Counted from the stretch's first letter, positions 1 to 44,528 are shown. The stretch is DNA of 64,000 nucleotides from Patescibacteria group bacterium (GCA_041651155.1 JBAZJU010000001.1:167619-231618), one strand, 5' to 3'. Notes: generated by a model not told the origin, from the sequence alone. Translations and numbers: made by a program.

Positions 1-564
1 GCAATATATTACATTGTAATCAAGACAAAAAATAATTACCCATATTTTAAAGAGAATATTTTTTGCGATTCGTTTATTGAGGATTTGAAAATTTGTAAAT
101 CATTGAAAGGTTTTAAGTTATACGCCTTTTCTATTATTTACGATCATGTGAATTTGATAATTAAACCGAATAATCAATTTAATATTTCCAAGATCATTAA
201 ATCATTGAAAGAAAACGTGTCAAGGAATATAAATATTATAATGGGTTATACGTTTAATCAAAATTCCCCGCTCTTCGTAGGCGAAACGACGTCGTTTCGC
301 CTACGAAGGAAGAGGATGAGACTATTTAATCTATTTAAGGGGAATTTTGATGATTCAAATGAAGGGAAAATAGATATTGCTCATTATAAAAAAGGATTTA
401 TAACGAAATTTGGTGATAAAAATAATTACCCAAAATTCAAATGGCAATTATCATTTTACGACCATTATATCCGTTTTCACGATAATCATTTGAAAAAGCA
501 AGGGGATTGGCCTTCGCCAACCGAAGTTGGCTTCGGCCAACGAAGGTTGGGATTATCATTTTGA
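1..564 (+). CDS. IS200/IS605-family Y1 (HUH) transposase / RAYT-like; 5' end lies off-window; probably degenerate
   Basis: Frame is open from base 1 (AIYYIVIKTKNNYPYF resembles the N-terminal beta-strand YHxVxxxKYR). YDHVNLII is a HuH-like motif with the second His replaced by Asn. WQLSFYDHYIRFHDNH matches the catalytic-Tyr region of IS200 TnpA. The ORF is interrupted in-frame by a 36-bp palindrome and ends in a REP-like palindrome. Confidence 0.5.
   Translation, partial: AIYYIVIKTKNNYPYFKENIFCDSFIEDLKICKSLKGFKLYAFSIIYDHVNLIIKPNNQFNISKIIKSLKENVSRNINIIMGYTFNQNSPLFVGETTSFRLRRKRMRLFNLFKGNFDDSNEGKIDIAHYKKGFITKFGDKNNYPKFKWQLSFYDHYIRFHDNHLKKQGDWPSPTEVGFGQRRLGLSF
273..308. repeat. 36-bp perfect palindrome inside the RAYT-like ORF
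   Basis: cttcgtaggcgaaacgacgtcgtttcgcctacgaag is self-complementary, read directly. Confidence 0.85.
507..550. repeat. REP-like compound palindrome (family B); inverted copy at 26943-26986
   Basis: ttggccttcgccaaccgaagttggcttcggccaacgaaggttgg equals the reverse complement of 26943-26986 with 2-3 mismatches. Confidence 0.75.
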
Positions 565-672
565 ATACACGGTTTATAACCATTTAAAGCACGGTTTGCC
601 GGGAAATTGGCAATATACAAGTTTAAATTATCCGGAGTTAATTGATAATATTGAAATTTAATTTTAAAAATT

Positions 673-2887: not shown

Positions 2888-3346
2888 ATGATAATTACTA
2901 TCTGTTCCACAATTAAATTCTGGCCCCAGATTTTGGAAGTTAAAAAACAGCTGGAAGATATGGGTCATGAAGTTTTAATCCCGCCTCATGAGGTGAAAAA
3001 TGAAACGGGTGATTTTATTCCCGTTGAAGAATATTATAAAATCCGCAGAGAAATGATGGCTAAAGATGGCCAAGAACACGATTGGATTTGGCAGCGTAAA
3101 AAAGAGGCCATCAATTGTCATTTTGCCAAAGTAGACAAGGCTGACGCTGTTTTAATTTTGAATTATGAGAAAAATGGGATTGACAATTACATCGGCGGCA
3201 ATACTTTTTTAGAAATGGGTTTGGCCTTTTGGCTTAATAAACCAATTTATTTAATCAATCCAATCCCCACGGAATTAAGCTACACCGAAGAAATAAAAGG
3301 CATGCAGCCGATTGTGATTAATGGGGATTTAAATTTGATAAAATAA
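2888..3346 (+). CDS. hypothetical protein (possibly nucleoside 2-deoxyribosyltransferase-like fold)
   Basis: Only a weak resemblance; assignment tentative. Confidence 0.3.
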   Translation: MIITICSTIKFWPQILEVKKQLEDMGHEVLIPPHEVKNETGDFIPVEEYYKIRREMMAKDGQEHDWIWQRKKEAINCHFAKVDKADAVLILNYEKNGIDNYIGGNTFLEMGLAFWLNKPIYLINPIPTELSYTEEIKGMQPIVINGDLNLIK

Positions 3347-3351
3347 TTTAT

Positions 3352-3439
3352 GCCCTGCTTTCCTGTCCGCTCGCCTCGGCGAAGCGGGCCAAAGCTTTTG
3401 CGACGGCGGAAGCAGGCTACTTGCCCACTGAAGTGGGGT
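3352..3439 (+). repeat. partial copy (GC-rich core plus cccact..gtggg hairpin) of the structured repeat family seen at 35401-35665 and 36755-37017
   Basis: Shares ctttcctgtccgctcgcctcggcgaagcgggccaaagc..gcgacggcggaag. Closing helix is cctgctttcc/ggaagcagg, which covaries against the other copies. Confidence 0.7.
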
Positions 3440-3452
3440 GTAAAGATATATT

Positions 3453-14294: not shown

Positions 14295-15914
14295 ATGTCT
14301 CCAAAATTCATCTTCGTTGCCGGTGGCGTGATGTCAGGCGTGGGCAAAGGCGTATCCTGCGCGTCCATTGGCAAGATTTTACAAAGCAAGGGCTATAAAG
14401 TCACGGCCATTAAAATTGACCCTTACATTAATGTTGATGCCGGCACTATGAATCCGACTGAGCATGGCGAGGTTTTTGTGACTGATGATGGCGATGAGAC
14501 AGATCAGGATATTGGCAATTATGAAAGATTTTTAGACCAGGATATTTTGTCTACTAATTACATGACCACTGGCCGCGTTTATTTAAGCGTGATTCAGCGC
14601 GAAAGGAATCTGGAATATGGCGGCAAGTGCGTGGAAGTTGTGCCGCATGTGCCAGAGGAAGTGATTAATCGCATTAAAAAAGCAGCTGAATTAGCCAAGG
14701 CAGATTTTACTATTGTGGAAATTGGCGGCACAGTTGGTGAATATCAAAATATATTATTTTTGGAAGCAGTCCGTTTAATGCGCACAAAGACTCCAGAGGA
14801 TGTGATTGTAATTTTGGTCAGCTATTTTCCCATTCCTTCAAAAATTGGTGAAATGAAAACAAAGCCCACTCAGTATGCGGTCAGAACTTTAAACTCAGCT
14901 GGCATATTCCCTGATTTTATTTTATGCCGCGCTGATGTGCCCTTGGATGAGGTAAGAAAAGAAAAATTGGCCACGTTTTGTAATATTCCGAAAGAGAATG
15001 CAATTTCTGCGCCAGATATTGATACGATTTATGAGGTTCCGCTTAATTTTGAAAAAGAAAAATTAGGCGATAAGATTTTGGAAAAATTTTGTTTGAAAGC
15101 TAAAGGCAAGGATTTGAAAGAATGGAGCGAGTTGGTGGATAAAATTAAAAAGACTAAAGAAAAAGTGAATATTGGCATTGTGGGCAAATATTTTGCCACT
15201 GGTGATTTTACTTTGGCTGATTCATATATTTCAGTGATTGAGGCAATCAAGCATGCAGCCTGGGCTAATGACCGTCAACCGATTTTATGCTGGATAAATT
15301 CTGAGGAATTTGAAAAAGATCCCGGCAAATTGTCTGAATTAAAAAAATATGACGGCATTATTGTGCCTGGTGGTTTTGGCAGCAGGGGAGTTGAAGGCAA
15401 AATTTCAGCCATTAAATATTGCCGAGAAAATAATATTCCTTATTTTGGCTTATGCTATGGCATGCAATTAGCCACTATTGAATTTGCTCGCAATGTAGCA
15501 GGTTTAATAGGCGCAAATACGCCAGAGGTTGATGAAAAAACACCTTATCCGGTTGTTCACACTATGGCAGATCAGGTCAGCAAGATTAAGGAAAAGAAAA
15601 TGGGCGGCACAATGCGCTTGGGCGCTTATCCTTGCGTTTTGGCCAAGGATTCCGTCAGTTATAAAGCTTATGGCCAAAAAGAAATTTCCGAACGCCATCG
15701 CCATCGTTATGAGTTTAATAATGAATATAGAGAACTTTTGGAACAAAAAGGACTAAGAATTGCCGGCACTTCGCCAGATAATAATTTGGTGGAAATAATT
15801 GAAGTGCCTAACCATAAATTTTTCGTGGGCACGCAGTTTCATCCTGAATTTAAATCCAGGCCATTAAAGCCACATCCTTTATTTAAAGAATTTATTAAAG
15901 CGGCGATAAGTTAA
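14295..15914 (+). CDS. pyrG: CTP synthase
   Basis: FVAGGVMSGVGKG N-terminus; glutamine amidotransferase GLCYGMQ; HPEF. Confidence 0.95.
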   Translation: MSPKFIFVAGGVMSGVGKGVSCASIGKILQSKGYKVTAIKIDPYINVDAGTMNPTEHGEVFVTDDGDETDQDIGNYERFLDQDILSTNYMTTGRVYLSVIQRERNLEYGGKCVEVVPHVPEEVINRIKKAAELAKADFTIVEIGGTVGEYQNILFLEAVRLMRTKTPEDVIVILVSYFPIPSKIGEMKTKPTQYAVRTLNSAGIFPDFILCRADVPLDEVRKEKLATFCNIPKENAISAPDIDTIYEVPLNFEKEKLGDKILEKFCLKAKGKDLKEWSELVDKIKKTKEKVNIGIVGKYFATGDFTLADSYISVIEAIKHAAWANDRQPILCWINSEEFEKDPGKLSELKKYDGIIVPGGFGSRGVEGKISAIKYCRENNIPYFGLCYGMQLATIEFARNVAGLIGANTPEVDEKTPYPVVHTMADQVSKIKEKKMGGTMRLGAYPCVLAKDSVSYKAYGQKEISERHRHRYEFNNEYRELLEQKGLRIAGTSPDNNLVEIIEVPNHKFFVGTQFHPEFKSRPLKPHPLFKEFIKAAIS

Positions 15915-15968
15915 AATTTTATACCTGACTTTAGTCAGCCCACTAAAGTGGGGTATAAATTAAATTTT

Positions 15969-16358
15969 ATGCCTGAAAAATTTGGAGAAAAAATTGAAAC
16001 TAAAAAATTTAATGACTTGACAGAATATTTAAAAAATAATTCTCAGCTTTTAGCTGAGGAAAAAGATATTGATAAGAGTTACAAGAGAATTTTAGGTGAG
16101 ATGAAAGCCTGTACAACTTATTATGATACTGAAAATATTAAAGTTAATCTCGATGGCTATAATTTGGTTTTTACAAATAAAAAAGGAGATTTGCTGCACT
16201 CTTTCCTTGTGCCGAAATTGATTCCTTCCTTGATCAAGGCCGGTAATTTGGGTGAAAGAAAAGAATTAGAAGGAAAATTAGAAGCAATTGGTTATAAAAT
16301 TGATGACTCGGACGAATTCAGAAATGTAATAGAAAAAGTATTGAGAAAAAGCAAATAG
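15969..16358 (+). CDS. hypothetical protein
   Basis: ORF only; ATG taken at 15969 (the ORF-track start at 15948 is a GTG inside a hairpin). Confidence 0.35.
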   Translation: MPEKFGEKIETKKFNDLTEYLKNNSQLLAEEKDIDKSYKRILGEMKACTTYYDTENIKVNLDGYNLVFTNKKGDLLHSFLVPKLIPSLIKAGNLGERKELEGKLEAIGYKIDDSDEFRNVIEKVLRKSK

Positions 16359-16362
16359 GAAT

Positions 16363-17043
16363 ATGAAATTAAATAATTTTCAATTTAACAATAAAGATTT
16401 TGCAATTTATACTCGCAGCCAGGCGGATAAAAGCATAATGAAAGAAATTTTTGAATTGCGGGAATATAAAGAAGTTGAAGCAATTATTAAGTCAGCCAAA
16501 CATCCAATCATAGACGCAGGAGCGCAGGCTGGCTTTTTTGTTTTGTACTGCAGGGCTTTAAATCAAGAAGTTAAAATTCTGGCCATTGAACCTGATGAGA
16601 ATAATTTGGAATTACTTAATCAGCATTTGGAAATTAATCAAATTAAAAATGTTGAGGTGATACCAGCTGCGCTGGCTGGCAAAAATGGTTTGCGGGATTT
16701 TTTTATTTCAAATGATACTCATAACCATGGGCTATTTAAAATTTTGGTACCAAAGATAAATAGGGTCAGTAAAGTTAAAACTTTTAGTTTGGATGATTTA
16801 TTGGAGGAGCAGGGAATTGAGAAGGTTGGTTTATTAAAATTAGATATTGAAGGCGCGGAATTTGAAGTATTAGAAAATTTTATTCATTGGGAGAAAATAA
16901 AAAACATTGCTTTGGAATACCACGATTTTAATGGTTTTAAGCATCAAGAAATAGAAAAGATTTTGGCAGAAAATGGTTTTAAAGTGAAAATAAGAAGTTC
17001 AAAGTTTGAGCAGAATTTAGGGTTTATTTTCGGTTTGAAATAA
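16363..17043 (+). CDS. FkbM-family methyltransferase
   Basis: SAM-methyltransferase fold motifs (IIDAGAQAGFF, LAIEPD), FkbM-like length. Confidence 0.65.
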   Translation: MKLNNFQFNNKDFAIYTRSQADKSIMKEIFELREYKEVEAIIKSAKHPIIDAGAQAGFFVLYCRALNQEVKILAIEPDENNLELLNQHLEINQIKNVEVIPAALAGKNGLRDFFISNDTHNHGLFKILVPKINRVSKVKTFSLDDLLEEQGIEKVGLLKLDIEGAEFEVLENFIHWEKIKNIALEYHDFNGFKHQEIEKILAENGFKVKIRSSKFEQNLGFIFGLK

Positions 17044-17141
17044 AAAATTCCCTCTTTGTCATTCCGAGAGTAACGAGGAGTCTATTACATCGGTGTAACA
17101 GATCCTTCACTTCGTTCAGGATGACAAAGAGGGAATTTTTT
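17043..17141. repeat. ~100-bp long hairpin (~20-27 bp stem) between convergent genes; terminator or structured element
   Basis: aaaaattccctctttgtcattcc pairs with ggatgacaaagagggaatttttt; an inner ttacatcggtgtaa hairpin sits in the loop. Confidence 0.6.
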
Positions 17142-17152
17142 ATTTGAGAAGA

Positions 17153-20709: not shown

Positions 20710-20731
20710 GCCTGCCTGCCGGCAGGCAGGC
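20710..20731. repeat. GC-rich perfect palindrome gcctgcctgccggcaggcaggc (second copy at 33566-33585)
   Basis: Read directly; flanked by cgaat..ttcgaataa direct words. Confidence 0.8.
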
Positions 20732-26942: not shown

Positions 26943-26986
26943 CCAACCTACGTTGGGCGAAGCCAACTTCGGTTGGCGAAGGCCAA
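26943..26986. repeat. REP-like compound palindrome (family B), inverted copy of 507-550
   Basis: ccaacctacgttgggcgaagccaacttcggttggcgaaggccaa. Confidence 0.75.
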
Positions 26987-29896: not shown

Positions 29897-29930
29897 AAAG
29901 AACATGCCACTCTTGGCATGTTCTTTCTCT
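29897..29930. terminator. hairpin gaacatgccactcttggcatgttc (shares the tgccactcttggca core with the hairpin at 30229-30262)
   Basis: A-run upstream and T-rich downstream, so bidirectional terminator-like. Confidence 0.5.
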
Positions 29931-29932
29931 TG

Positions 29933-30164
29933 TGACCCGGCCCCAAAGGGGAGCCTTCGGCTTTGGGGTAGGATGTTTCGTTTTTGATTTATTTATGACC
30001 CGGCCCCAAAGGGGAGCCTTCGGCTCTGGGGTAGGATATTTCGTTTTTGATTTATTTGTGACCCGGCCCCAAAGGGGAGCCTTCGGCTCTGGGGTAGGAT
30101 ATTTCGTTTTTGATTTATTTGTGACCCGGCCCCAAAGGGGAGCCTTCGGCTCTGGGGTTCGAAC
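29933..30164 (-). repeat. tandem array of 4 x 63 bp: decayed tRNA 3'-end remnants each carrying GC hairpins (gagccttcggctc, ccccaaagggg)
   Basis: Units start at 29933, 29996, 30059 and 30122. On the minus strand each ends CCGGGTCA, identical to the tRNA-Lys acceptor 3' end; unit 4 additionally retains a GTTCGAA T-loop. Confidence 0.8.
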
Positions 30165-30265: not shown

Positions 30266-30338
30266 TGACCCGGCTGGGGTTCGAACCCAGGACCCTCTGC
30301 TTAAAAGGCAGATGCTCTACCAGCTGAGCTACCGAGTC
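30266..30338 (-). tRNA. tRNA-Lys (anticodon UUU)
   Basis: Minus-strand sequence GACTCGGTAGCTCAGCTGGTAGAGCATCTGCCTTTTAAGCAGAGGGTCCTGGGTTCGAACCCCAGCCGGGTCA folds as a canonical cloverleaf; no CCA encoded. Confidence 0.9.
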
Positions 30339-33565: not shown

Positions 33566-33585
33566 CCTGCCTGCCGGCAGGCAGG
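33566..33585. repeat. GC-rich perfect palindrome cctgcctgccggcaggcagg (copy of 20711-20730)
   Basis: Read directly; flanked by an AT-rich dyad of tactaat / attagta words. Confidence 0.8.
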
Positions 33586-33611: not shown

Positions 33612-34931
33612 ATGAAAGCATTACTCAAAAAATTAATACCAAGAAATTTAATTCTGAAATTCCATAAAGCGGAAGCTGTTATGGCTAATTATCGTTATGG
33701 CTTTCCATCCAACGAATTGATTGTGATTGGCGTAACCGGCACCAATGGCAAATCAACAACTTGCAATTTAATTGCCAAGATCTTGGAAGAAAGCGGGGCC
33801 AAAGTCGGCTTAATGACCACGGTTAATTTTAAAATTGCCGGCCAGGAATGGTTAAATGATACGCACATGACCATGCAGGGCAGAGTTACTTTGCAAAAAA
33901 TGCTGTGGCAAATGGTTAAAGCCGGCTGTCAGTATGCAATCATAGAAACTTCGTCTGAGGGAATTATGCAGCACAGAAATTGGGGGATTAATTATGATGT
34001 GGCCGTCTTTACCAATTTAACTCCGGAGCATATAGAAGCCCATGGCTCGTTTGAAAATTATAAAAAAGCTAAAGGAACATTATTCGCCAATTTATTTAAA
34101 TTTCGCCGTAAGAAAATTAATGGCCAGCTAATCCCCAAAACTTCAGTGGTTAATTTAGATGACGAACATTGGCAGTATTATTTTGATTTCTCAGCTGATA
34201 AAAAATACCTTTATGCCATTAACCACCAGGGTAAATTACCAGAGGCAGAAGTGCTGAGGGCAGGGGATATTTCCTTAAAAATGGATGGCACATTTTTCAG
34301 AATCGGGCTTGATGATATACAGACCAATTTAATCGGTAATTTTAATGTTTATAATTGTTTAGCTGCGATTTGCGTAGCGCGTAATTTTGGCATCTCAATG
34401 GAGCAATGTAAACAAGCCTTGGTTAAAGTGACCGGCGTGCCTGGCAGAATGGAAGCCATTAATGAAGGCCAGAATTTCAATGTTTTAATTGATTACGCGC
34501 ATGATCCGGCATCTTTTGCCATTATTTTTGAAACAATAAAATTTTTTCCTAAAAAAAGAATTATTCATGTCTTTGGTTCAGCCGGCGGCGTGCGCGATCA
34601 TGTTAAACGTCCGGTTTTGGGCAAACTTTCTGGACAGCATGCTGACGTGACAATTATTACTGATGAGGATTCTTATGATGAACCGACAGAGAAGATTTTA
34701 AATGAAATTGCAGCTGGTGCGATTGAGGCAGGGAAAATTGCCAATGAAAATTTATTTAAAATTCCTGATCGCCGCGAGGCCATAAAATTTGCCTGCCAGA
34801 TGGCACAAGCAGGGGATTTGGTTTTGATTACTGGCAAGGGCACTGAACAAAGCATTAAATCAAATGGGCAGGAAATGCCATGGGATGATCGGTATGTAAC
34901 GAGGGAGGTTTTGAAAGAAATTCTTGGTTAA
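33612..34931 (+). CDS. murE: UDP-N-acetylmuramoyl-tripeptide ligase
   Basis: GVTGTNGKSTT; Mur ligase central and C-terminal domains. Confidence 0.85.
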   Translation: MKALLKKLIPRNLILKFHKAEAVMANYRYGFPSNELIVIGVTGTNGKSTTCNLIAKILEESGAKVGLMTTVNFKIAGQEWLNDTHMTMQGRVTLQKMLWQMVKAGCQYAIIETSSEGIMQHRNWGINYDVAVFTNLTPEHIEAHGSFENYKKAKGTLFANLFKFRRKKINGQLIPKTSVVNLDDEHWQYYFDFSADKKYLYAINHQGKLPEAEVLRAGDISLKMDGTFFRIGLDDIQTNLIGNFNVYNCLAAICVARNFGISMEQCKQALVKVTGVPGRMEAINEGQNFNVLIDYAHDPASFAIIFETIKFFPKKRIIHVFGSAGGVRDHVKRPVLGKLSGQHADVTIITDEDSYDEPTEKILNEIAAGAIEAGKIANENLFKIPDRREAIKFACQMAQAGDLVLITGKGTEQSIKSNGQEMPWDDRYVTREVLKEILG

Positions 34932-35026
34932 TTCCGGATGACGAAAGCCGAAATCTGAATTATTAATAATTTGCTTGATATTTAATTTTAAGTTATAATA
35001 AAGATGATTTAAATTAAATTTATTTT

Positions 35027-35371
35027 ATGGAAGAAAAAGATTTAAAACAAATTAAAGAAGTTGTAGACCAATCTTTTGAAGATAAATTTGGTCAAATTTG
35101 GGATAAGAATCTCTCTCCTGCTTTAGACGTTGTTTGTGAGAGATTAGATAAGGTTGATCAAAGGTTAAATAGCGTAGAATCGCAAATGGTAACAAAGTCT
35201 TATCTGGATGACAAATTAGCAGATTTGGAAGGCGGGGTAATTTCTAAACTTAGGAAAGAAGATGAAAAGGTGAATAGAATAATTTCTTTATTGAAAAAGC
35301 ATAAAGTTGTGCCATCAGCAGATTTGGAAGATTTGGATAATTTGCAGATTTTTCCCAGAATTCAGGTTTAG
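35027..35371 (+). CDS. hypothetical coiled-coil protein
   Basis: ORF only. Confidence 0.3.
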   Translation: MEEKDLKQIKEVVDQSFEDKFGQIWDKNLSPALDVVCERLDKVDQRLNSVESQMVTKSYLDDKLADLEGGVISKLRKEDEKVNRIISLLKKHKVVPSADLEDLDNLQIFPRIQV

Positions 35372-35400
35372 AGTCTTTTGATTTAGGTTAAATTATAGTC

Positions 35401-35665
35401 GCCAGGCAATGGGCGATTTTTTGATTGGTAATGTGATTCTCCGACGAAGAAGCGATTGGCCAATCGCTCCTTCAATGCGGGGGAATTAATCAAAAAATCG
35501 CCTGTTAAAATTTATACCCCACTTTCTTGTCCGCTCGCCTCGGCGAAGCGGGCCAAAGCATAACGACAGCGGAAGTGGGTTTTTTATTTGGCCTGCTAAA
35601 GCAGTGTATAATTTTGTAAATAAAAAATCCTGAACCATATTGGGTCCAGGATATAAGAGCCGCGA
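35401..35665 (+). repeat. ~265-bp structured multi-hairpin element, copy 1 (candidate structured ncRNA / terminator-associated repeat)
   Basis: Nested long hairpin (caggcgattttttgattgg .. ccaatcaaaaaatcgcctg around the palindrome gaagaagcgattgg/ccaatcgcttcttc). GC-rich core gtccgctcgcctcggcgaagcgggccaaagc closed by cccacttt/aagtggg plus T-run; two further small hairpins follow. 90% identical to 36755-37017. Confidence 0.8.
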
Positions 35666-35693
35666 CAGGTACTTTGGCTCTATCTTAATTTTT

Positions 35694-35975
35694 TTACTTG
35701 TCGTAATAGCAGATATATGTGGCTGGTTCTGTTGCTTCGAAGATGATGGGATCGCCGACTTTGATATCACAGTCCTGGGATGAAATGGCGCGATATTCAG
35801 TGCCATTGATTGTGATTTTGTTGTGAATAACGGTAATACTTTCAGGGGCTTTGGCGATACCAAAATCGTATTTACCGGGAAGAACAACACCAATTGTTGC
35901 TTTTTTACCCAAGAAAGTGGTAAAGCCCAGCGATTGGACTTGTCCATCAAAGTAAGTATTGTGTTTGATTTCCAT
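35694..35975 (-). CDS. ppnP: pyrimidine/purine nucleoside phosphorylase PpnP (DUF1255 cupin)
   Basis: MEIKHNTYFDGQVQSLGF..GVVLPGKYDFG..YICYY aligns along its length with E. coli YaiE/PpnP. Confidence 0.8.
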   Translation of the reverse strand: MEIKHNTYFDGQVQSLGFTTFLGKKATIGVVLPGKYDFGIAKAPESITVIHNKITINGTEYRAISSQDCDIKVGDPIIFEATEPATYICYYDK

Positions 35976-35986
35976 TCAATCCTCCT

Positions 35987-36343
35987 TTACTTATTATCAA
36001 GATATTTCTTGGCCAGCATTGCCCAGGTCGGATCGCCATAACGAATGATTTTCTCAACTTGCGGCGCCCAGTATTCTAGGCGCATGCGGTAAGGTTCATG
36101 GGTTAAATTATATCCGATTTGGAGCTGTAGCTCGCATTTTTTGGGATTATTGGTCTCACACCAGATATTATAGACGACCATTAATCGGCCGTCTTTTAGC
36201 TGGATAAAATCGCTTTTTTGGACTGAAGCGAGCTCCTTAATAAGGCTCGGATCATATGTGGCTTGACCCTGGCTGTTGCAGCCAACAAGCATACACAGAA
36301 ACAGGGAAAAGATTATTACTGACAAGAGACATCTTTTTTCCAT
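35987..36343 (-). CDS. lipoprotein, unknown function
   Basis: Signal peptide with LVGC lipobox. Confidence 0.45.
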   Translation of the reverse strand: MEKRCLLSVIIFSLFLCMLVGCNSQGQATYDPSLIKELASVQKSDFIQLKDGRLMVVYNIWCETNNPKKCELQLQIGYNLTHEPYRMRLEYWAPQVEKIIRYGDPTWAMLAKKYLDNK

Positions 36344-36367
36344 CTTTTTCTCCTTTCAAAGTTCTTG

Positions 36368-36604
36368 TTATGGTTTTTTGTAAAACCATTGGTAAATACC
36401 GTAAATCCAGCTGCCAGTGTAAACCACATTCATTAACATTATGCCCCATTGATGATTATGATACGTGGTTATGTACCAGAAGGGTTGCGAGGCTAAACCG
36501 CAAACAAAACCCCACTTGTTTTTTCGGGAAATGAGAATTATTGCCAAGATGCCAAAGATACAGATGGCTATTTGGCTTATATTTTCCCAATTAAGATATT
36601 GCAT
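36368..36604 (-). pseudogene. truncated PnuC-like nicotinamide riboside transporter fragment (78 aa; full PnuC is ~190-230 aa)
   Basis: ISRKNKWGFVCGL..WYITTY resembles the PnuC N-terminal helices; the ORF ends after ~2 TM helices. Confidence 0.4.
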
Positions 36605-36754
36605 TTTTAAAGAACCTCCTTGTAGTTTGCCTTAATTTAAGCGCAGATTAGAGATTTTGTCAACCCAGTCTTAATAGTTCAATAGCTTGGAAACGTTTAT
36701 GATAAGATAAAATGGCTACAATTAAAAGTTTTATGAAAGATTAAGTGAAATTTC

Positions 36755-37017
36755 GCCTAGACAGGCGATTTTTTGATTGGCATTTTTTTGACCCGACGAA
36801 GAAGCGATTGCCAATCGCTTCTTCAATGTGGGGGAATTAATCAAAAAATCGCCTGCCAAATTTATGTCCCACTTTCTTGTCCGCTCGCCTCGGCGAAGCG
36901 GGCCAAAGCATAGCGACGGCGGAAGTGAGCTTTTTTATTTGGCCTGCTAAAGCAGGGTATAAATTTTTAAATAAAAAATCCCGAACCACATTGGGTCCAG
37001 GATATAGAGTTGCGGAA
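36755..37017 (+). repeat. ~265-bp structured multi-hairpin element, copy 2
   Basis: Same architecture as 35401-35665; the inner palindrome is perfect here. Confidence 0.8.
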
Positions 37018-37042
37018 AGTCAGCGGTTTTTAGACGGCTGAT

Positions 37043-37324
37043 TCAGTCATGGATTTTATATCTCATGGCATTTCTCTGATCAACAATTTCTCTGATGATA
37101 AGGTAGATCCAAATCATGACTGTGTTGAGGCAAAAGCAAATCAAGATTTGGACATTCGTCCAATTGCCACTTTTTGATAAGTGGTCCATAAGTACTTGAA
37201 TGGTAGTGAATATTAGACCACCCGAAATGGCAACCACGAAGGTTAGAAGAACGATTTTAATGTAGTTAATTTTGTCTTTCATGTCTTTCCTCCTTTGTTT
37301 GGGGCTATATGATATATTTATCAT
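37043..37324 (-). CDS. small membrane protein
   Basis: ORF with TM helices. Confidence 0.3.
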   Translation of the reverse strand: MINISYSPKQRRKDMKDKINYIKIVLLTFVVAISGGLIFTTIQVLMDHLSKSGNWTNVQILICFCLNTVMIWIYLIIREIVDQRNAMRYKIHD

Positions 37325-37414
37325 ATTTTATTCAATCTGTCAATGGTTGGCGAAAATGGAAATTTTTGTTAAAATAATAGTAAGATTAAGAATAAAGAAA
37401 ATACAATTAAGAAT

Positions 37415-38569
37415 ATGGACGGGTATATTATTATTCACTATGGGGAAATTGCGTTAAAGGGCGGGAACCGCAGTTTTTTTGAAAATAAACTAATTGCCAA
37501 TATCAAACTGGCTTTAGCTGATTTGGGCGAACTTTGGCTAAAACAAGTTGCTGGCAGGATTATTGTTAAAATTGAGGAAGATTATGATTTAAACTTGATC
37601 AAAGCCCAGTTGCAAAAGGTTTTTGGTATTGAGTATTTTGCCTTTGCCTGGAATTCATCCCAGGATTTGAAAGAGCTGGAAAAAGATTTGCTTTCTTTGA
37701 TAAAAACAAAAAAATTTAAAACTTTTAGAATTACTTCGCGAAGAACTAATAAAGAGTTTCCTTTGGATTCTCAAAAGTTAAGCGGGGAATTGGGCGCTAT
37801 GGTAGTTAAGAAATTAAAGAAAAAAGTTGATTTGGAAAATTTTGATTTGAATTGTTATGTTGATATAGTGGAAAATTTTGCATTTTTATATTTTGAAAGA
37901 TTTGAATGCCGGGGCGGGTTGCCTGTTGGCGTGTCTGATAAATTGCTGTGTTTAATTTCTGGCGGCATTGATTCGCCAGTGGCTGCTAATTTAATGCAAA
38001 AAAGGGGAGCGCCCATTGTTTATATCCATTTTGATTCCTATCCTTCCACGCCCAAAGAAAATCAGGAAAAGGTTAAGGACTTGGTTAAGGTCTTAAACGA
38101 TTATCAGTTTGAATCTAAATTATATATAGTACCATTTTTGGAAATTCAAAAAGAAATTTTACAAAAAGCGCCAGAAGATTATCGCGTAATTTTTTATCGC
38201 CGGATGATGTTAAGAATTGCTAAAAAAATTGCGTTCAAAGAAAATGTTTTGGCTTTAGTTACGGGTGAAAGCTTGGGTCAGGTGGCTTCGCAAACTGTTG
38301 AGAATATTCGCGCGATTTCTGAAGCAATTGATTTGCCGATTTTAAGGCCCTTGATCGGTTTTAATAAGGAAGAAATAATTGAAATCGCGGCCAAGATAGG
38401 GACTTATGAACTTTCAATCCAACCTTTTGGAGATTGCTGTTCACTTTATGTCCCTAAACATCCGGTTACCCGCGCGGATTTAAATTTAATTTTGGATACT
38501 GAAAAGGACTGGGGATTTGGGAAATTACTAGAGGAGGTAGTTAGTAAAGCGGAGATTATTAAATTTTAA
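37415..38569 (+). CDS. thiI: tRNA 4-thiouridine synthase ThiI
   Basis: THUMP N-terminus; PP-loop SGGIDSPVAA. Confidence 0.85.
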   Translation: MDGYIIIHYGEIALKGGNRSFFENKLIANIKLALADLGELWLKQVAGRIIVKIEEDYDLNLIKAQLQKVFGIEYFAFAWNSSQDLKELEKDLLSLIKTKKFKTFRITSRRTNKEFPLDSQKLSGELGAMVVKKLKKKVDLENFDLNCYVDIVENFAFLYFERFECRGGLPVGVSDKLLCLISGGIDSPVAANLMQKRGAPIVYIHFDSYPSTPKENQEKVKDLVKVLNDYQFESKLYIVPFLEIQKEILQKAPEDYRVIFYRRMMLRIAKKIAFKENVLALVTGESLGQVASQTVENIRAISEAIDLPILRPLIGFNKEEIIEIAAKIGTYELSIQPFGDCCSLYVPKHPVTRADLNLILDTEKDWGFGKLLEEVVSKAEIIKF

Positions 38570-44384: not shown

Positions 44385-44528
44385 TGCTCCTGAAGGGAAT
44401 TGAACCCCCATCTCCAATTGTTTGAATTCCTTTTGTTTAGCCTATGTACACTTAGCTAAGCCGGGATCAAACAATCTCCCAGTTGGGAGGCGTGCCTAGC
44501 CGTTGTTTTGCCATTAAACTACAAGAGC
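44385..44528 (-). ncRNA. 144-nt tRNA-like gene: intact acceptor stem, D-arm and T-arm, anticodon arm replaced by ~85 nt folding into two hairpins
   Basis: 5' GCTCTTG-TA-GTTT-AATGGCA-AAAC .. 3' GGGGG-TTCAATT-CCCTT-CAGGAGC-A. Insert hairpins: ctccc-aact-gggag, and ttgtttga..tcaaacaa enclosing ttagc..gctaa. No canonical anticodon stem-loop found. Confidence 0.4.

What the first reader, a model, noticed from the sequence alone, without database searches (positions are those of the whole stretch)
35401..37017. Repeated ~265-bp multi-hairpin element with covarying closing helix: candidate structured ncRNA or structured mobile repeat
Copies:
- Two full copies (35401-35665 and 36755-37017, same orientation, ~90% identical) and a core-only copy (3352-3439).

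Shared architecture:
- (i) A ~95-nt nested hairpin: outer stem caggcgattttttgattgg / ccaatcaaaaaatcgcctg, inner perfect palindrome gaagaagcgattgg / ccaatcgcttcttc.
- (ii) A GC-rich core gtccgctcgcctcggcgaagcgggccaaagc-N4-gcgac(g/a)gcggaag, closed by a helix and then TTTTTTATTTGG.
- (iii) Hairpin cctgc-taaa-gcagg.
- (iv) Hairpin atcctgaacc..ggtccaggat.

Covariation:
- The helix closing the GC core covaries between copies: cccacttt/aagtggg in copy 1 versus cctgctttcc/ggaagcagg in the 3352 copy.
- These are compensatory changes that preserve pairing, which argues for selection on RNA or DNA secondary structure rather than on sequence.

Related hairpins:
- Small stand-alone cccact-Naa-gtgggg hairpins of the same flavour sit after gene stops at 3424-3439 and 15939-15953.
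Basis: seen in the sequence. Interest (0 to 1): 0.8.

Follow-up and report, generated by a model that had tools for sequence, protein, structure and literature searches.

The report
Nested hairpin repeats in terminator block
The repeated 265-bp "multi-hairpin element" is most likely not an RNA gene but a conserved transcription-terminator block of a Patescibacteria genome that carries small, apparently mobile GC-rich hairpin DNA elements nested inside one another, one of them a 48-base core lying in the loop of a mini-hairpin.

Summary
There are two ~265-bp direct copies (35401-35665, 36755-37017; ~90% identical) and a third copy of the GC-rich core (3347-3452). A 31-nt stretch is identical in all three. 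No Rfam family matches. The core pattern found only chance matches in GTDB species genomes, JGI metagenomes and IMG/VR.

The "covarying closing helix" is not evidence for a conserved RNA. The two helices are two different mini-hairpins, A (CCCAC/GTGGG) and B (CCTGC/GCAGG). Both also occur empty, as an adjacent A+B pair, in this genome and in relatives. The same 48-49-nt core sits between TTT and A of the first hairpin's TTTA loop in both independent sites.

Relatives show three layers:
- The scaffold (long hairpin stem, minus-strand terminator iv, agagcc hairpin) is conserved in closer relatives.
- Its central slot and interior hold unrelated GC palindromes in each genome.
- The 3347-3452 module is a 105-bp insertion between genes that lie 1-8 nt apart in three relatives.

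A single-copy RAYT-like Y1 transposase gene lies at a conserved locus at the window start. It is frameshifted by another tiny dispersed hairpin element.

Verdict: nested REP/MITE-like selfish hairpin DNA inside a duplicated terminator block. This is a new family of a known kind, and the mechanism is inferred.

The parts
35397..35424 (+). T1: small + strand terminator-like hairpin (AGTCGCC..GGCGATT followed by a T run) after the stop of the 114-aa gene (35371). Its 3' arm is also the 5' arm of the long hairpin.
   Evidence: Terminator scan; sequence. One pair is a G.T wobble on the + strand only.
35411..35504 (.). Long nested hairpin (i), copy 1. The outer arms GGGCGATTTTTTGATTGG / AATCAAAAAATCGCCTG are the clade-conserved scaffold. 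The interior, with the near-perfect palindrome 35446-35473, is lineage-specific.
   Evidence: The outer arms are conserved in L018 and the 3' arm in L017 (whose contig starts inside the hairpin), while the interiors are unrelated.
35518..35579 (+). Mini-hairpin A (CCCAC TTT..A GTGGG) carrying the 48-nt GC-rich core (35526-35573) in its loop, copy 1.
   Evidence: Empty A hairpins occur in L010 and L018 and at window 3424 and 15939.
35580..35591 (+). T-rich spacer TTTTTTATTTGG between A and B. Together with P1 it resembles a + strand terminator.
   Evidence: Absent from the empty A+B modules.
35592..35605 (.). It is followed by the trailer GTATAATTTT, which is inverted with respect to the leader AAATTTATAC at 35508-35517.
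35622..35652 (-). Hairpin iv plus U run: intrinsic terminator of the minus-strand operon encoding a PnuC-like protein, a lipoprotein-like protein and PpnP (copy 1).
   Evidence: Terminator scan. G.U wobbles occur only on the minus strand. Conserved as a perfect hairpin in L017 and L018.
35656..35681 (-). AGAGCC..GGCTCT hairpin directly after the PpnP stop (35694). It is conserved downstream of the same gene cluster in relatives.
36753..37003 (.). Copy 2 of the whole block: T1' 36753-36768; long-hairpin arms 36762-36778 and 36839-36855; hairpin A with core 36868-36929 (core 36876-36923); T run 36930-36942; hairpin B 36943-36956; hairpin iv 36978-37003, which is the minus-strand terminator of the 93-aa gene (37043-37324).
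   Evidence: The closest relative, L017, has neither this block nor the 93-aa gene between the PnuC-like gene's promoter and thiI.
3347..3452 (+). 106-nt intergenic stretch holding the 105-bp inserted two-hairpin module. Hairpin B' (CCTGC TTT..A GCAGG, 3354-3416) carries the 49-nt core (3362-3410). Then come the spacer CTACTTG, the empty hairpin A (3424-3437) and the trailer GTGTAAAGATATATT up to the HD-gene ATG (3453).
   Evidence: The HD gene starts 1 nt after the upstream gene in L013 and L020 and 8 nt after it in L015. No promoter-like or terminator-like site lies in the module.
15914..15968 (+). Core-less two-hairpin module of the same family (CTGAC TTTA GTCAG + CCCAC TAAA GTGGG), with leader AAAATTTTATAC and trailer GGTATAAATT. 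It lies between the CTP synthase stop and the next ATG (15969).
   Evidence: A homologous module sits at a different locus in L013.
1..661 (+). RAYT-like Y1 transposase gene (it starts 44 nt before the window) and the candidate mobilising enzyme. It contains a conserved in-frame 36-bp perfect palindrome (273-308). It is frameshifted by a 36-nt hairpin element (511-546) flanked by TTGG repeats.
   Evidence: Same syntenic position in L019 and L020.

Best explanation
The 265-bp repeat is a layered piece of intergenic DNA, not one RNA gene.

Layer 1, shown. An old, clade-conserved terminator block marks the 3' end of minus-strand operons in this Patescibacteria lineage. Read on the minus strand it consists of:
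- the stop codon;
- the AGAGCC hairpin;
- hairpin iv with a U run;
- a 'slot';
- a long hairpin with arms AATCAAAAAATCGCC / GGCGATTTTTTGATT.
On the plus strand it also provides small terminators.

Layer 2, shown. The slot and the interior of the long hairpin hold different GC-rich palindromes in each relative. In this genome the slot holds a small quasi-palindromic two-hairpin module, A+B, with inverted ends AATTTATRCCC / GGGYATAAATT. That module is itself present or absent at several loci among relatives.

Layer 3, shown. A 48-49-nt GC-rich core lies exactly between TTT and A of the TTTA loop of the module's first hairpin. This is hairpin A in the block and hairpin B in a reverse-oriented module that was inserted between two genes at 3347-3452.

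Duplication. The block, already carrying the core, was then duplicated within this genome. Copy 2 serves as the 3' flank of an inserted 93-aa gene.

Mechanism, inferred. The core and the A+B module are non-autonomous, hairpin-forming selfish elements of the REP/REPIN or MITE type. They probably move as single-stranded DNA on the lagging-strand template and preferentially land in exposed hairpin loops and terminator-to-promoter gaps. The natural candidate enzyme is the single-copy RAYT-like Y1 transposase at the window start, which in this genome has itself been frameshifted by a sister element.

Consequence, inferred. The structures are tolerated or co-opted as terminators. The 31-nt identity among copies then reflects recent copying and possibly the sequence needs of the mobilising enzyme, not an RNA function.
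For: Distribution:
- No Rfam family.
- The core pattern gives only chance matches in 596 Gb of species genomes, in JGI metagenomes and in IMG/VR.
- A covariance model built from the 3 copies finds no further copy in about 167 kb plus 52 kb of this genome's flanks and relatives' loci.

The core-only copy is an insertion:
- Relative L013 (HD protein 86% identical, same gene order) reads AAATAG-T-ATG where the window has 106 nt.
- L020 has a 1-nt gap and L015 an 8-nt gap in front of the HD gene.

Empty hairpins:
- Empty, directly adjacent A+B modules lie upstream of thiI in L010 and L018.
- Empty hairpins occur at window 3424, 15925-15952, 35592 and 36943.
- With the core removed, copies 1 and 2 match the forward L010 module and the 3347 module matches its reverse complement (23/23 nt over AATTTATGCCCTGCTTT-AGCAGG). 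So the core occupies the same loop position, TTT^A, in two different hairpins.

The scaffold is conserved and its contents are not:
- L017 and L018 keep the 3' outer arm, hairpin iv and the AGAGCC hairpin; L018 also shows the 5' arm, which lies off the end of the L017 contig.
- Both carry unrelated GC palindromes in the slot and the interior.

Sister elements behave as mobile DNA:
- The 36-nt element CCTTCGCCAACCGAAGTTGGCTTCGGCCAACGAAGG is flanked by TTGG at all three loci: inside the RAYT-like ORF, at window 26943-26986, and in L010 between the ABC-transporter and ftsX genes.
- Inside the RAYT-like ORF it splits a DW|DY motif that is contiguous in 8 homologues.

Candidate enzyme:
- The repaired Y1 protein best matches NCBIfam 'REP-associated tyrosine transposase' (56.5 bits, against 25 bits for IS200).
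- Its homologues are labelled RayT by JGI.
- It sits at one conserved syntenic locus in L019, L020 and the window, and L013 keeps a remnant (P0310, on the same contig as L013, listed).

Strand evidence:
- Hairpin iv has G.U wobbles only on the minus strand and scores as a terminator there.
- T1 scores as a terminator on the plus strand.
- All three cores lie on the strand with positive GC skew (+0.10 to +0.20), which is the lagging-strand template sequence.
Against: - Only three core copies were seen in about 80 kb of this genome, representing two independent sites. The rest of the genome could not be read.
- No relative shows an empty A+B module at the exact slot of copies 1 and 2, so insertion there is inferred by analogy.
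- The core has no clear target-site duplication and no GTAG/CGTC tag.
- The core does not flank the RAYT-like gene.
- The RAYT-like gene seen here is frameshifted and scores below NCBIfam's cut-off.
- Perfect identity of 31 nt in all copies, while the flanks differ by about 10% or more, could also mean purifying selection on a function.
- The plus-strand G.U wobble in P1, and those in the outer stem of the long hairpin, hint at RNA-level pairing on the + strand.
- Gene conversion between modules cannot be excluded.
Confidence: 0.62

Rival explanations
1. A structured non-coding RNA (a small RNA, or a riboswitch-like or attenuator element) whose three-way-junction core is closed by a P1 helix that covaries between copies. 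The repeats would then be paralogous RNA genes.
For: - Strong predicted folding.
- Two compensatory pairs in P1 and a conserved U.G pair on the + strand.
- 31 nt are invariant in three copies.
- P1 plus a U run resembles a terminator in copies 1 and 2.
- Neighbouring genes share a nucleoside/nucleotide theme: PpnP, a PnuC-like protein, an HD hydrolase and NUDIX.
- The 5' strand of P2 can pair with either of two 3' partners (AGCGG or RGCGG), as in a switch.
Against: - No Rfam hit.
- Absent from orthologous sites in five relatives' loci.
- Absent from GTDB, JGI and IMG/VR at the pattern level.
- Copies 1 and 2 precede no gene on the + strand. No + strand promoter-like site was scanned directly upstream of either, and the T1 terminator hairpin lies upstream of the core.
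- The minus-strand promoter of the PnuC-like operon lies downstream of copy 2, so copy 2 is not in that operon's leader.
- P2 never varies, P3 is broken twice in copy 1, and the covariation term is +0.11 kcal/mol, essentially zero.
- The 'covarying' helices are the independent hairpins A and B, which swap places between the two module types. That would need eight coordinated transitions under a divergence model.
Confidence: 0.1
2. Ordinary terminator DNA with no transposition. The block is a functional bidirectional terminator copied by segmental duplication or recombination during shuffling of small gene cassettes between the Mur-ligase gene (33612-34931) and thiI. The 3347 copy arose by ectopic gene conversion or illegitimate recombination from the block.
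For: - The scaffold is conserved, and terminator-like on both strands.
- The interval between the Mur-ligase gene and thiI has a different gene content and order in every relative examined.
- The same promoter sequence and the same terminator pieces recur as cassette borders.
- Copy 2 came in together with the 93-aa gene.
Against: - This does not explain why the same 48 nt sit at the identical loop position of two different hairpins.
- The flanking homology available for conversion is only a few nucleotides.
- The 3347 module contains no terminator or promoter signal and was inserted inside an operon.
- Sister GC hairpin elements show insertion into an ORF with TTGG direct repeats.
Confidence: 0.18
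3. A DNA-level recombination or protein-binding site. The long hairpin, with conserved outer arms and a variable centre, would be an attC-like folded single-strand site used for cassette exchange. Alternatively the core would be a binding site for a DNA-binding protein.
For: - Conserved arms with a hypervariable centre resemble the logic of attC sites.
- Two direct copies bracket a three-gene cassette.
- The inner palindromes are perfect and loop-less, which suggests DNA rather than RNA.
- GCGAAGC inside the core is a very stable DNA mini-hairpin motif (own knowledge).
Against: - No GTTRRRY / RYYYAAC core sites at the arms, by inspection.
- No integron integrase was seen among the genes called around the relatives' loci. 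The only recombinase seen is a large serine recombinase about 7 kb away in L010 and L011.
- The cassettes carry their own promoters, and the block follows, in each case, the end of an operon like a terminator.
Confidence: 0.07

Closest known systems
REP / REPIN sequences mobilised by RAYT (REP-associated tyrosine transposase), as described in Pseudomonas and Enterobacteria (PMC3116915, PMC5581495, PMC3733652; abstracts seen)
   Same: - Short GC-rich imperfect palindromes in extragenic space.
- Inverted doublets: A and B are inverted variants of one unit.
- Presence/absence differences between close relatives.
- A single-copy, vertically inherited, syntenic RAYT-like Y1 gene in the same genome.
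- Use as terminators or mRNA-end structures.
   Different: - The core has no GTAG/CGTC tag.
- The core does not flank the RAYT-like gene.
- Copy number looks low (3 in about 80 kb).
- The RAYT match is below NCBIfam's cut-off, and the gene here is frameshifted.
- The core is nested in the loop of another repeat.
- The host is an AT-rich (36% GC) Patescibacteria genome.
Insertion sequences that target REP hairpins, such as IS1397 / ISKpn1 (which insert into the loop of palindromic units) and IS110-family elements such as IS621 (own knowledge, not checked here)
   Same: Site-specific, orientation-specific insertion into the loop of a small repeated hairpin.
   Different: Those are full-size, transposase-encoding insertion sequences. 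Here the insert is 48-49 nt and encodes nothing.
Bacterial MITEs with regulatory side effects (Correia elements of Neisseria, ERIC, RUP, BOX) and Rickettsia palindromic elements (own knowledge)
   Same: - Non-autonomous, hairpin-forming and tens to hundreds of bp long.
- Inverted ends: AATTTATRCCC / GGGYATAAATT.
- Inserted next to or within genes, sometimes in frame.
- Can create terminators or promoters.
   Different: - No parent insertion sequence is known.
- A target duplication (TATG) is seen at only one site, in AT-rich sequence.
- The elements are much smaller.
- They are nested in three layers.
GC clusters of yeast mitochondria and repetitive hairpin-forming elements of sponge mitochondria (PMC2800124; abstract seen)
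   Same: Short GC-rich hairpin elements that repeatedly invade the intergenic regions of an AT-rich compact genome.
   Different: Those occur in organelles, not bacteria. There is no sequence relationship, and the mechanisms are also unknown there.
Rho-independent (intrinsic) terminators
   Same: T1 (+ strand) and hairpin iv (- strand) fit the stem-plus-U-run pattern and sit right after stop codons. The scaffold is conserved as the 3' end of operons.
   Different: The core, the A+B module and the interior palindromes are not needed for that role. They vary between relatives and also occur where no terminator signal exists.

Membership tests
Any Rfam 15 RNA family | Covariance-model score at or above the family's gathering threshold | tested here: not met
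   Only tRNAs pass in the window. E-value mode on both loci gives only sub-threshold chance hits to microRNA, small-RNA and other families.
Riboswitch / cis-regulatory leader RNA | Lies in the 5' UTR of a gene, on the same strand, in most copies | tested here: not met
   Only the 3347 copy precedes a gene. Copy 1 lies between convergent genes. Copy 2 lies upstream of the minus-strand promoter (36663-36634) and faces the other way.
Riboswitch / cis-regulatory leader RNA | Conserved at orthologous positions in related genomes, with compensatory changes in the aptamer helices | tested here: not met
   Absent upstream of the HD gene in L013, L015 and L020. Replaced by unrelated sequence in L017 and L018. 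P2 is invariant and P3 is broken in copy 1.
REP/REPIN-RAYT system | Short imperfect palindromes in extragenic space, often as inverted doublets | tested here: met
   The core, the A+B doublet and the 36-nt TTGG-flanked element are all intergenic apart from one ORF hit. A is an inverted variant of B, matching at 10 of 14 positions.
REP/REPIN-RAYT system | Tens to hundreds of copies per genome | not testable with these tools
   Only about 80 kb of the genome (longest contigs on record 294 kb and 348 kb; total size unknown) could be read. Look-ups are limited to window proteins. Three core copies were seen.
REP/REPIN-RAYT system | Conserved GTAG or CGTC tetranucleotide at the foot of the palindrome | tested here: not met
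   None at the core or at hairpin A. A single CTAC follows hairpin B at 3417-3420. GTAG/CTAC does flank the palindrome inside the RAYT-like ORF and the hairpin doublets downstream of the Mur-ligase gene in L008 and L010.
REP/REPIN-RAYT system | A single-copy, vertically inherited RAYT gene in the genome | tested here: inconclusive
   NF047646 scores 56.5 bits, below the cut-off of 80 but covering positions 3-143 of 146 in the profile. The locus is syntenic in L019 and L020, with a remnant in L013 (P0310, listed). The copy here is frameshifted. Copy number in the whole genome is unknown.
REP/REPIN-RAYT system | RAYT gene flanked by its cognate REPs | tested here: not met
   The flanks of the gene (L005 6440-6503 and 7210-7220; L019 flanks) carry neither the core nor the A/B hairpins. 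Instead the ORF contains a conserved palindrome.
MITE | Terminal inverted repeats | tested here: inconclusive
   The modules are bracketed by AATTTATRCCC ... GGGYATAAATT, imperfect and AT-rich. The core itself has only a weak TTCC..GGAA symmetry.
MITE | Target-site duplication, verified against an empty site | tested here: inconclusive
   The 3347 module shows TTATG on both sides, against a single TATG in L013. The 36-nt element shows TTGG on both sides, against a single TGG codon in RAYT homologues. No duplication is visible for the core.
MITE | A related autonomous insertion sequence with the same ends | not tested
   No insertion-sequence database was available. There are no matches in the plasmid or phage collections.
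Intrinsic terminator | GC-rich stem-loop followed by a U run, directly downstream of a gene | tested here: met
   Hairpin iv on the minus strand in both copies, and T1 on the plus strand in both copies. Strand-specific wobbles support this. The feature applies to the scaffold, not to the core.
Integron attC site | R''/R' core sites (RYYYAAC / GTTRRRY) and an IntI integrase | tested here: not met
   No such motifs at the arms of the long hairpin, by inspection. No integrase appears among the called genes. The search was not exhaustive.

The most novel reading that the evidence does not exclude
The 48-nt GC-rich core is an ultra-small non-autonomous transposable element. It would insert, in a fixed orientation and on the lagging-strand template, precisely into the TTTA tetraloop of small repeat hairpins. 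This gives a repeat-within-a-repeat-within-a-terminator arrangement. A Patescibacteria RAYT lineage would mobilise it in trans. That lineage carries its own conserved GTAG-tagged palindrome inside its ORF. This would be a REP/RAYT system with a new target logic, in a phylum where none appears to have been described: one literature search surfaced no such report.
Probability: 0.2. Interest if true: 0.65.

Novelty: new member of a known kind. Interest (0 to 1): 0.38.

Why it matters
If correct, small streamlined Patescibacteria genomes host several families of tiny GC-rich hairpin elements.

- These elements invade terminator hairpins, operon junctions and even the gene of their likely transposase.
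- Such nested inserts can imitate 'covarying' RNA helices. That is a useful warning for scans that look for structured RNAs.
- The result gives a concrete, testable substrate set for an uncharacterised RAYT lineage: TTTA-loop hairpins, the 48-nt core, the 36-nt TTGG-flanked element and the palindrome inside the ORF.
- The same work points to a hypervariable cassette region between the Mur-ligase gene and thiI whose borders are repeated promoters and terminator blocks.

It does not reveal a new RNA class or regulatory system.

Tried and rejected
- Rfam, at gathering and at E-value thresholds: nothing relevant.
- Pattern scans with GTCCGCT-N11-AGCGGGCCAAAGC. GTDB genomes gave 2 hits and JGI metagenomes 1 hit, all chance matches inside unrelated GC-rich sequence. 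IMG/VR gave 0.
- BLAST of copy 1 against the plasmid and phage collections: no match.
- Covariance model R1, built from the three copies and run over the window, its flanks and relatives' loci. With default filters it found no new copy. With filters off it found only empty A/B hairpins at about 9 bits.
- Walking along the 294-kb source contig: not possible beyond about 10 kb each side, because look-ups accept only window proteins. The extra 16 kb obtained held no core copy.
- Riboswitch upstream of the PnuC-like gene: rejected, because the minus-strand promoter lies between copy 2 and the gene.
- attC-like site: no core motifs.
- CRISPR-repeat-like solo repeat: no array and no Rfam CRISPR direct-repeat hit at the core.
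- Known self-cleaving ribozymes (hammerhead, twister, pistol, hatchet, HDV-like): no Rfam signal.
- Abundance of mini-hairpins with TTTA/TAAA loops: only five perfect ones in 64 kb, so they form a small family rather than a genome-wide signal.
- One partial lead. The P2 hairpin GCTCGCCTNGGCGAAGC recurs (16/17 nt) inside a different GC-rich multi-hairpin cluster in relative L008 (17935-17951). This suggests that sub-modules are shared between such clusters.
Full report
**Observation.** The window comes from a Patescibacteria MAG. It is 99.98-100% identical to ENA ERZ27247363 contig k141_799758 (293,782 bp), and NCBI names its ThiI and HD proteins 'Patescibacteria group bacterium'. GC content is 36% and GC skew is positive throughout.

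- Two direct copies at 35401-35665 and 36755-37017, with start-to-start spacing of about 1351 bp and about 90% identity.
- A third copy of the GC-rich core at about 3345-3420.
- The 31-mer GTCCGCTCGCCTCGGCGAAGCGGGCCAAAGC occurs exactly three times, all on the + strand, against zero in shuffles.
- Copy 1 folds much better than shuffles on either strand.
- The scan also shows a small + strand terminator-like hairpin at the start of each copy. It shows that hairpin iv is a terminator on the minus strand.

**Known families and other sequence collections.** Nothing known matches.
- Rfam 15 gives only tRNAs at gathering thresholds and only noise in E-value mode.
- A relaxed core pattern (20 specified bases) found two hits in 596 Gb of GTDB species genomes and one in JGI metagenomes. 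All are chance matches inside GC-rich coding sequence with no hairpin. IMG/VR gave none.
- The plasmid and phage collections have no match.
- A covariance model of the three copies found no further copy in the window, in 16 kb of extra flank from the same contig, or in about 150 kb of relatives' loci.

**The 'covarying helix' re-read.** The two versions of the closing helix are two different mini-hairpins: A = CCCAC-loop-GTGGG and B = CCTGC-loop-GCAGG.
- Both exist without any core. A is found at 3424-3437 and 15939-15952.
- In relatives L010/L011/L012 and L018 (ThiI 88-89% identical) an empty, directly adjacent pair lies just upstream of the thiI start...TATACCCCAC TTTA GTGGG CCTGC TAAA GCAGGG(C/A)ATAAATTT....
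- With the core removed, the central part of copies 1 and 2 matches this module in forward orientation.
- With the core removed, the 3347 module matches the module's reverse complement. AATTTATGCCCTGCTTT-AGCAGG is identical over 23/23 nt.
- So in both independent sites the same 48-49 nt (CYTGTCCGCTCGCCTCGGCGAAGCGGGCCAAAGC-N4/5-CGACRGCGGA) lie between TTT and A of the TTTA loop of the module's first hairpin. That hairpin is A in one case and B in the other.
- A divergence-with-compensation model would need hairpins 1 and 2 to swap identities through eight coordinated transitions.
- RNAalifold finds no other support. P2 never varies, P3 is broken twice in copy 1, and the covariation term is +0.11 kcal/mol against a -29.77 folding term, essentially zero.

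**The core-only copy is an insertion.** In L013 (NCBI GCA_026395675.1; HD protein 86% identical; same order of NUDIX, 152-aa, HD and epimerase genes) the 152-aa gene's stop and the HD gene's ATG are one base apart (AAATAG T ATG). The window has 106 nt there. In L020 and L015 the HD gene also starts 1 and 8 nt after the preceding gene. The insert is bounded by TTATG on both sides, against a single TATG in the empty site. It contains no promoter-like or terminator-like signal. Conversely, L013 carries a related core-less module upstream of its nitroreductase gene, where the window has 11 bp. The modules therefore come and go between close relatives.

**The 265-bp unit is a conserved scaffold with variable contents.** The two closer relatives have the same block at the 3' end of a minus-strand gene.
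- L018 (ThiI 89%) keeps GGGCGATTTTTTGATT ... AATCAAAAAATCGCCC, then AATAAAAAAATCCTGAACC..GGTTCAGGAT (hairpin iv), then the AGAGCC..GGCTCT hairpin.
- L017 (ThiI 93%) keeps the 3' arm, hairpin iv and the AGAGCC hairpin. Its contig starts inside the long hairpin, so the 5' arm is not visible.
- The interior of the long hairpin differs in every genome.
- The slot where the window has A(core)+B also differs. L018 has GGGATCCAATCCCCAATTGGGAATTGGATTCC. L017 has CCTAGGCCTGCCTCGCAAGGCGGGCGAGGCCTGGCCC.
- Hairpin iv is a perfect stem in L017 and L018. In the window's copies it carries one and two transitions. These are G.U wobbles on the minus strand but A.C mismatches on the plus strand, so selection acts on a minus-strand RNA terminator.
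- T1, P1 and the outer stem of the long hairpin have their wobbles on the plus strand.

**Gene context.**
- Copy 1 lies between convergent genes: the 114-aa gene on the plus strand and PpnP on the minus strand.
- Copy 2 lies after the 93-aa minus-strand gene. It is upstream of the promoter (TTGACA, 18 nt, TAAATT; 36663-36634) of the operon encoding the PnuC-like protein, the lipoprotein-like protein and PpnP.
- In L017 the PnuC-like gene's promoter directly adjoins the thiI promoter. So the 93-aa gene and block 2 together form an insertion of about 680 bp in the window lineage.
- Gene content and order in the interval between the Mur-ligase gene and thiI differ in every relative examined.

**Other tiny GC-rich hairpin elements and a candidate enzyme.** The window starts inside a Y1 transposase gene (L005 6504-7209, which is window -44 to 661).
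- After repair, its best NCBIfam match is 'REP-associated tyrosine transposase' (56.5 bits, cut-off 80, nearly full profile coverage). IS200 scores 25 bits.
- Homologues are confined to Patescibacteria-type sources and are labelled RayT by JGI.
- The gene sits at the same syntenic place in L019 and L020, and L013 keeps a remnant there (P0310). This is the single-copy, vertically inherited habit reported for RAYTs (PMC5581495, abstract).
- In the window it is frameshifted by a 36-nt two-hairpin element, CCTTCGCCAACCGAAGTTGGCTTCGGCCAACGAAGG, flanked by TTGG repeats. The element splits a DW|DY motif that is contiguous in eight homologues.
- The same element, again between TTGG repeats, lies at window 26943-26986 and in L010 between the ABC-transporter and ftsX genes.
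- The ORF also contains a perfect 36-bp palindrome, CTTC-GTAG-GCGAAACGAC|GTCGTTTCGC-CTAC-GAAG. It is identical at the DNA level in the intact L019 orthologue (78% protein identity). A copy of its core lies in the interior of the long hairpin of L017's block.
- Relatives also carry GTAG/CTAC-bracketed hairpin doublets downstream of the Mur-ligase gene.
- Part of the core's P2 hairpin recurs (16/17 nt) in another GC-rich hairpin cluster in L008.

**Interpretation.** Three things are shown:
- The scaffold is an old terminator block.
- Its contents are lineage-specific GC-rich palindromes.
- The core occupies one defined loop position in two different hairpins, and one of these lies in a module that is demonstrably inserted.

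Two things are inferred:
- The core and the A+B module are non-autonomous REP/REPIN- or MITE-like elements that move as hairpin-forming single-stranded DNA.
- A RAYT-like enzyme may mobilise them.

All three cores lie on the strand with positive GC skew. That strand has the sequence of the lagging-strand template, the substrate preferred by IS200/IS605-type enzymes (own knowledge). With only two independent events this is weak support.

Weak points:
- Few copies were seen, and the rest of the genome is unread.
- The core has no tag and no target duplication.
- The RAYT-like gene here is inactivated and scores below threshold.
- The 31-nt identity could reflect function.

I give the nested-selfish-DNA model 0.62. 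A purely recombinational terminator duplication gets 0.18, a true structured ncRNA 0.10, and a recombination or protein-binding site 0.07.

**Novelty and score.** Small palindromic mobile repeats that settle in terminators are a known kind: REP/BIME, MITEs, Rickettsia palindromic elements and mitochondrial GC clusters. This is a new family in a phylum where I found none described in one literature search. Its unusual features are three-layer nesting and an apparent loop-specific target. It is not a new RNA class. Interest is 0.38.

Noticed in passing
window 273-308 (inside the RAYT-like ORF); L019 10318-10353; L017 1-20: A perfect, loop-less 36-bp palindrome with GTAG/CTAC (CTTCGTAGGCGAAACGAC|GTCGTTTCGCCTACGAAG) lies in frame inside the RAYT-like gene and encodes the conserved residues LFVGETTSFRLR. 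It is 100% identical at the DNA level in an orthologue with only 78% protein identity. Its core also occurs in a non-coding terminator block of relative L017. It may be the cognate REP of this RAYT lineage, carried inside the gene.
   Followed up: partly
window 507-550 and 26943-26986; L010 15221-15254: A 36-nt two-hairpin GC-rich element flanked by TTGG direct repeats. One copy frameshifts the RAYT-like ORF, where homologues have an uninterrupted DWDY motif. The other copies are intergenic, in this genome and in a relative.
   Followed up: yes
window 29930-30158, next to tRNA-Lys at 30266-30338 (- strand): Tandem 63-bp repeats (3 or more units, 96-97% identical). On the minus strand each unit carries a GC-rich hairpin plus CCGGGTCA, the same 8 bases that end the adjacent tRNA-Lys. 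This looks like repeated attachment-site remnants. The BLAST alignment between the window and the ENA contig breaks and overlaps inside this array, consistent with a difference of one unit.
   Followed up: no
window 44385-44528 (- strand): Rfam calls a tRNA spanning 144 nt (39 bits) that ARAGORN does not report. It may be a tRNA gene interrupted by an insert or intron of about 70 nt.
   Followed up: no
window 33612-37415, compared with L008, L010, L017 and L018: The interval between the Mur-ligase gene and thiI is hypervariable. Small genes (PpnP, a lipoprotein-like gene, a 3-TM PnuC-like gene, tiny membrane proteins) differ in presence and order in every relative. Nearly the same promoter sequence (TTGAC..TTAAAT) and the same terminator pieces recur at cassette borders.
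   Followed up: partly
L010 8960-9045 and 9825-9895; L008 9080-9150 and 17840-17990: Relatives carry other GC-rich multi-hairpin intergenic clusters. These include GTAG...CTAC-bracketed hairpin doublets (a REPIN-like layout) downstream of the Mur-ligase gene.
   Followed up: partly
window 20711-20730 and 33566-33585; L013 10181-10200: The perfect palindrome GCCTGCCTGCCGGCAGGCAGGC recurs in intergenic spots of this genome and of a relative.
   Followed up: no
window 15914-15977; L013 3530-3605: The leader of the core-less two-hairpin module (AAAATTTTATACCTGA) repeats the start region of the next gene (AAATTTTATGCCTGA, ATG at 15969). L013 carries the same leader, including ATGCCTGAA, at a different locus. 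The modules may duplicate or donate start-codon regions. Their trailer GGTATAAAT resembles a -10 box 8-14 nt before start codons that lack a Shine-Dalgarno sequence.
   Followed up: partly
window 17038-17145: A 52-nt-arm inverted repeat (AAATAAAAAATTCCCTCTTTGTCATTCCGAG...), 79% complementary, lies between convergent genes. It is probably a large bidirectional terminator.
   Followed up: no
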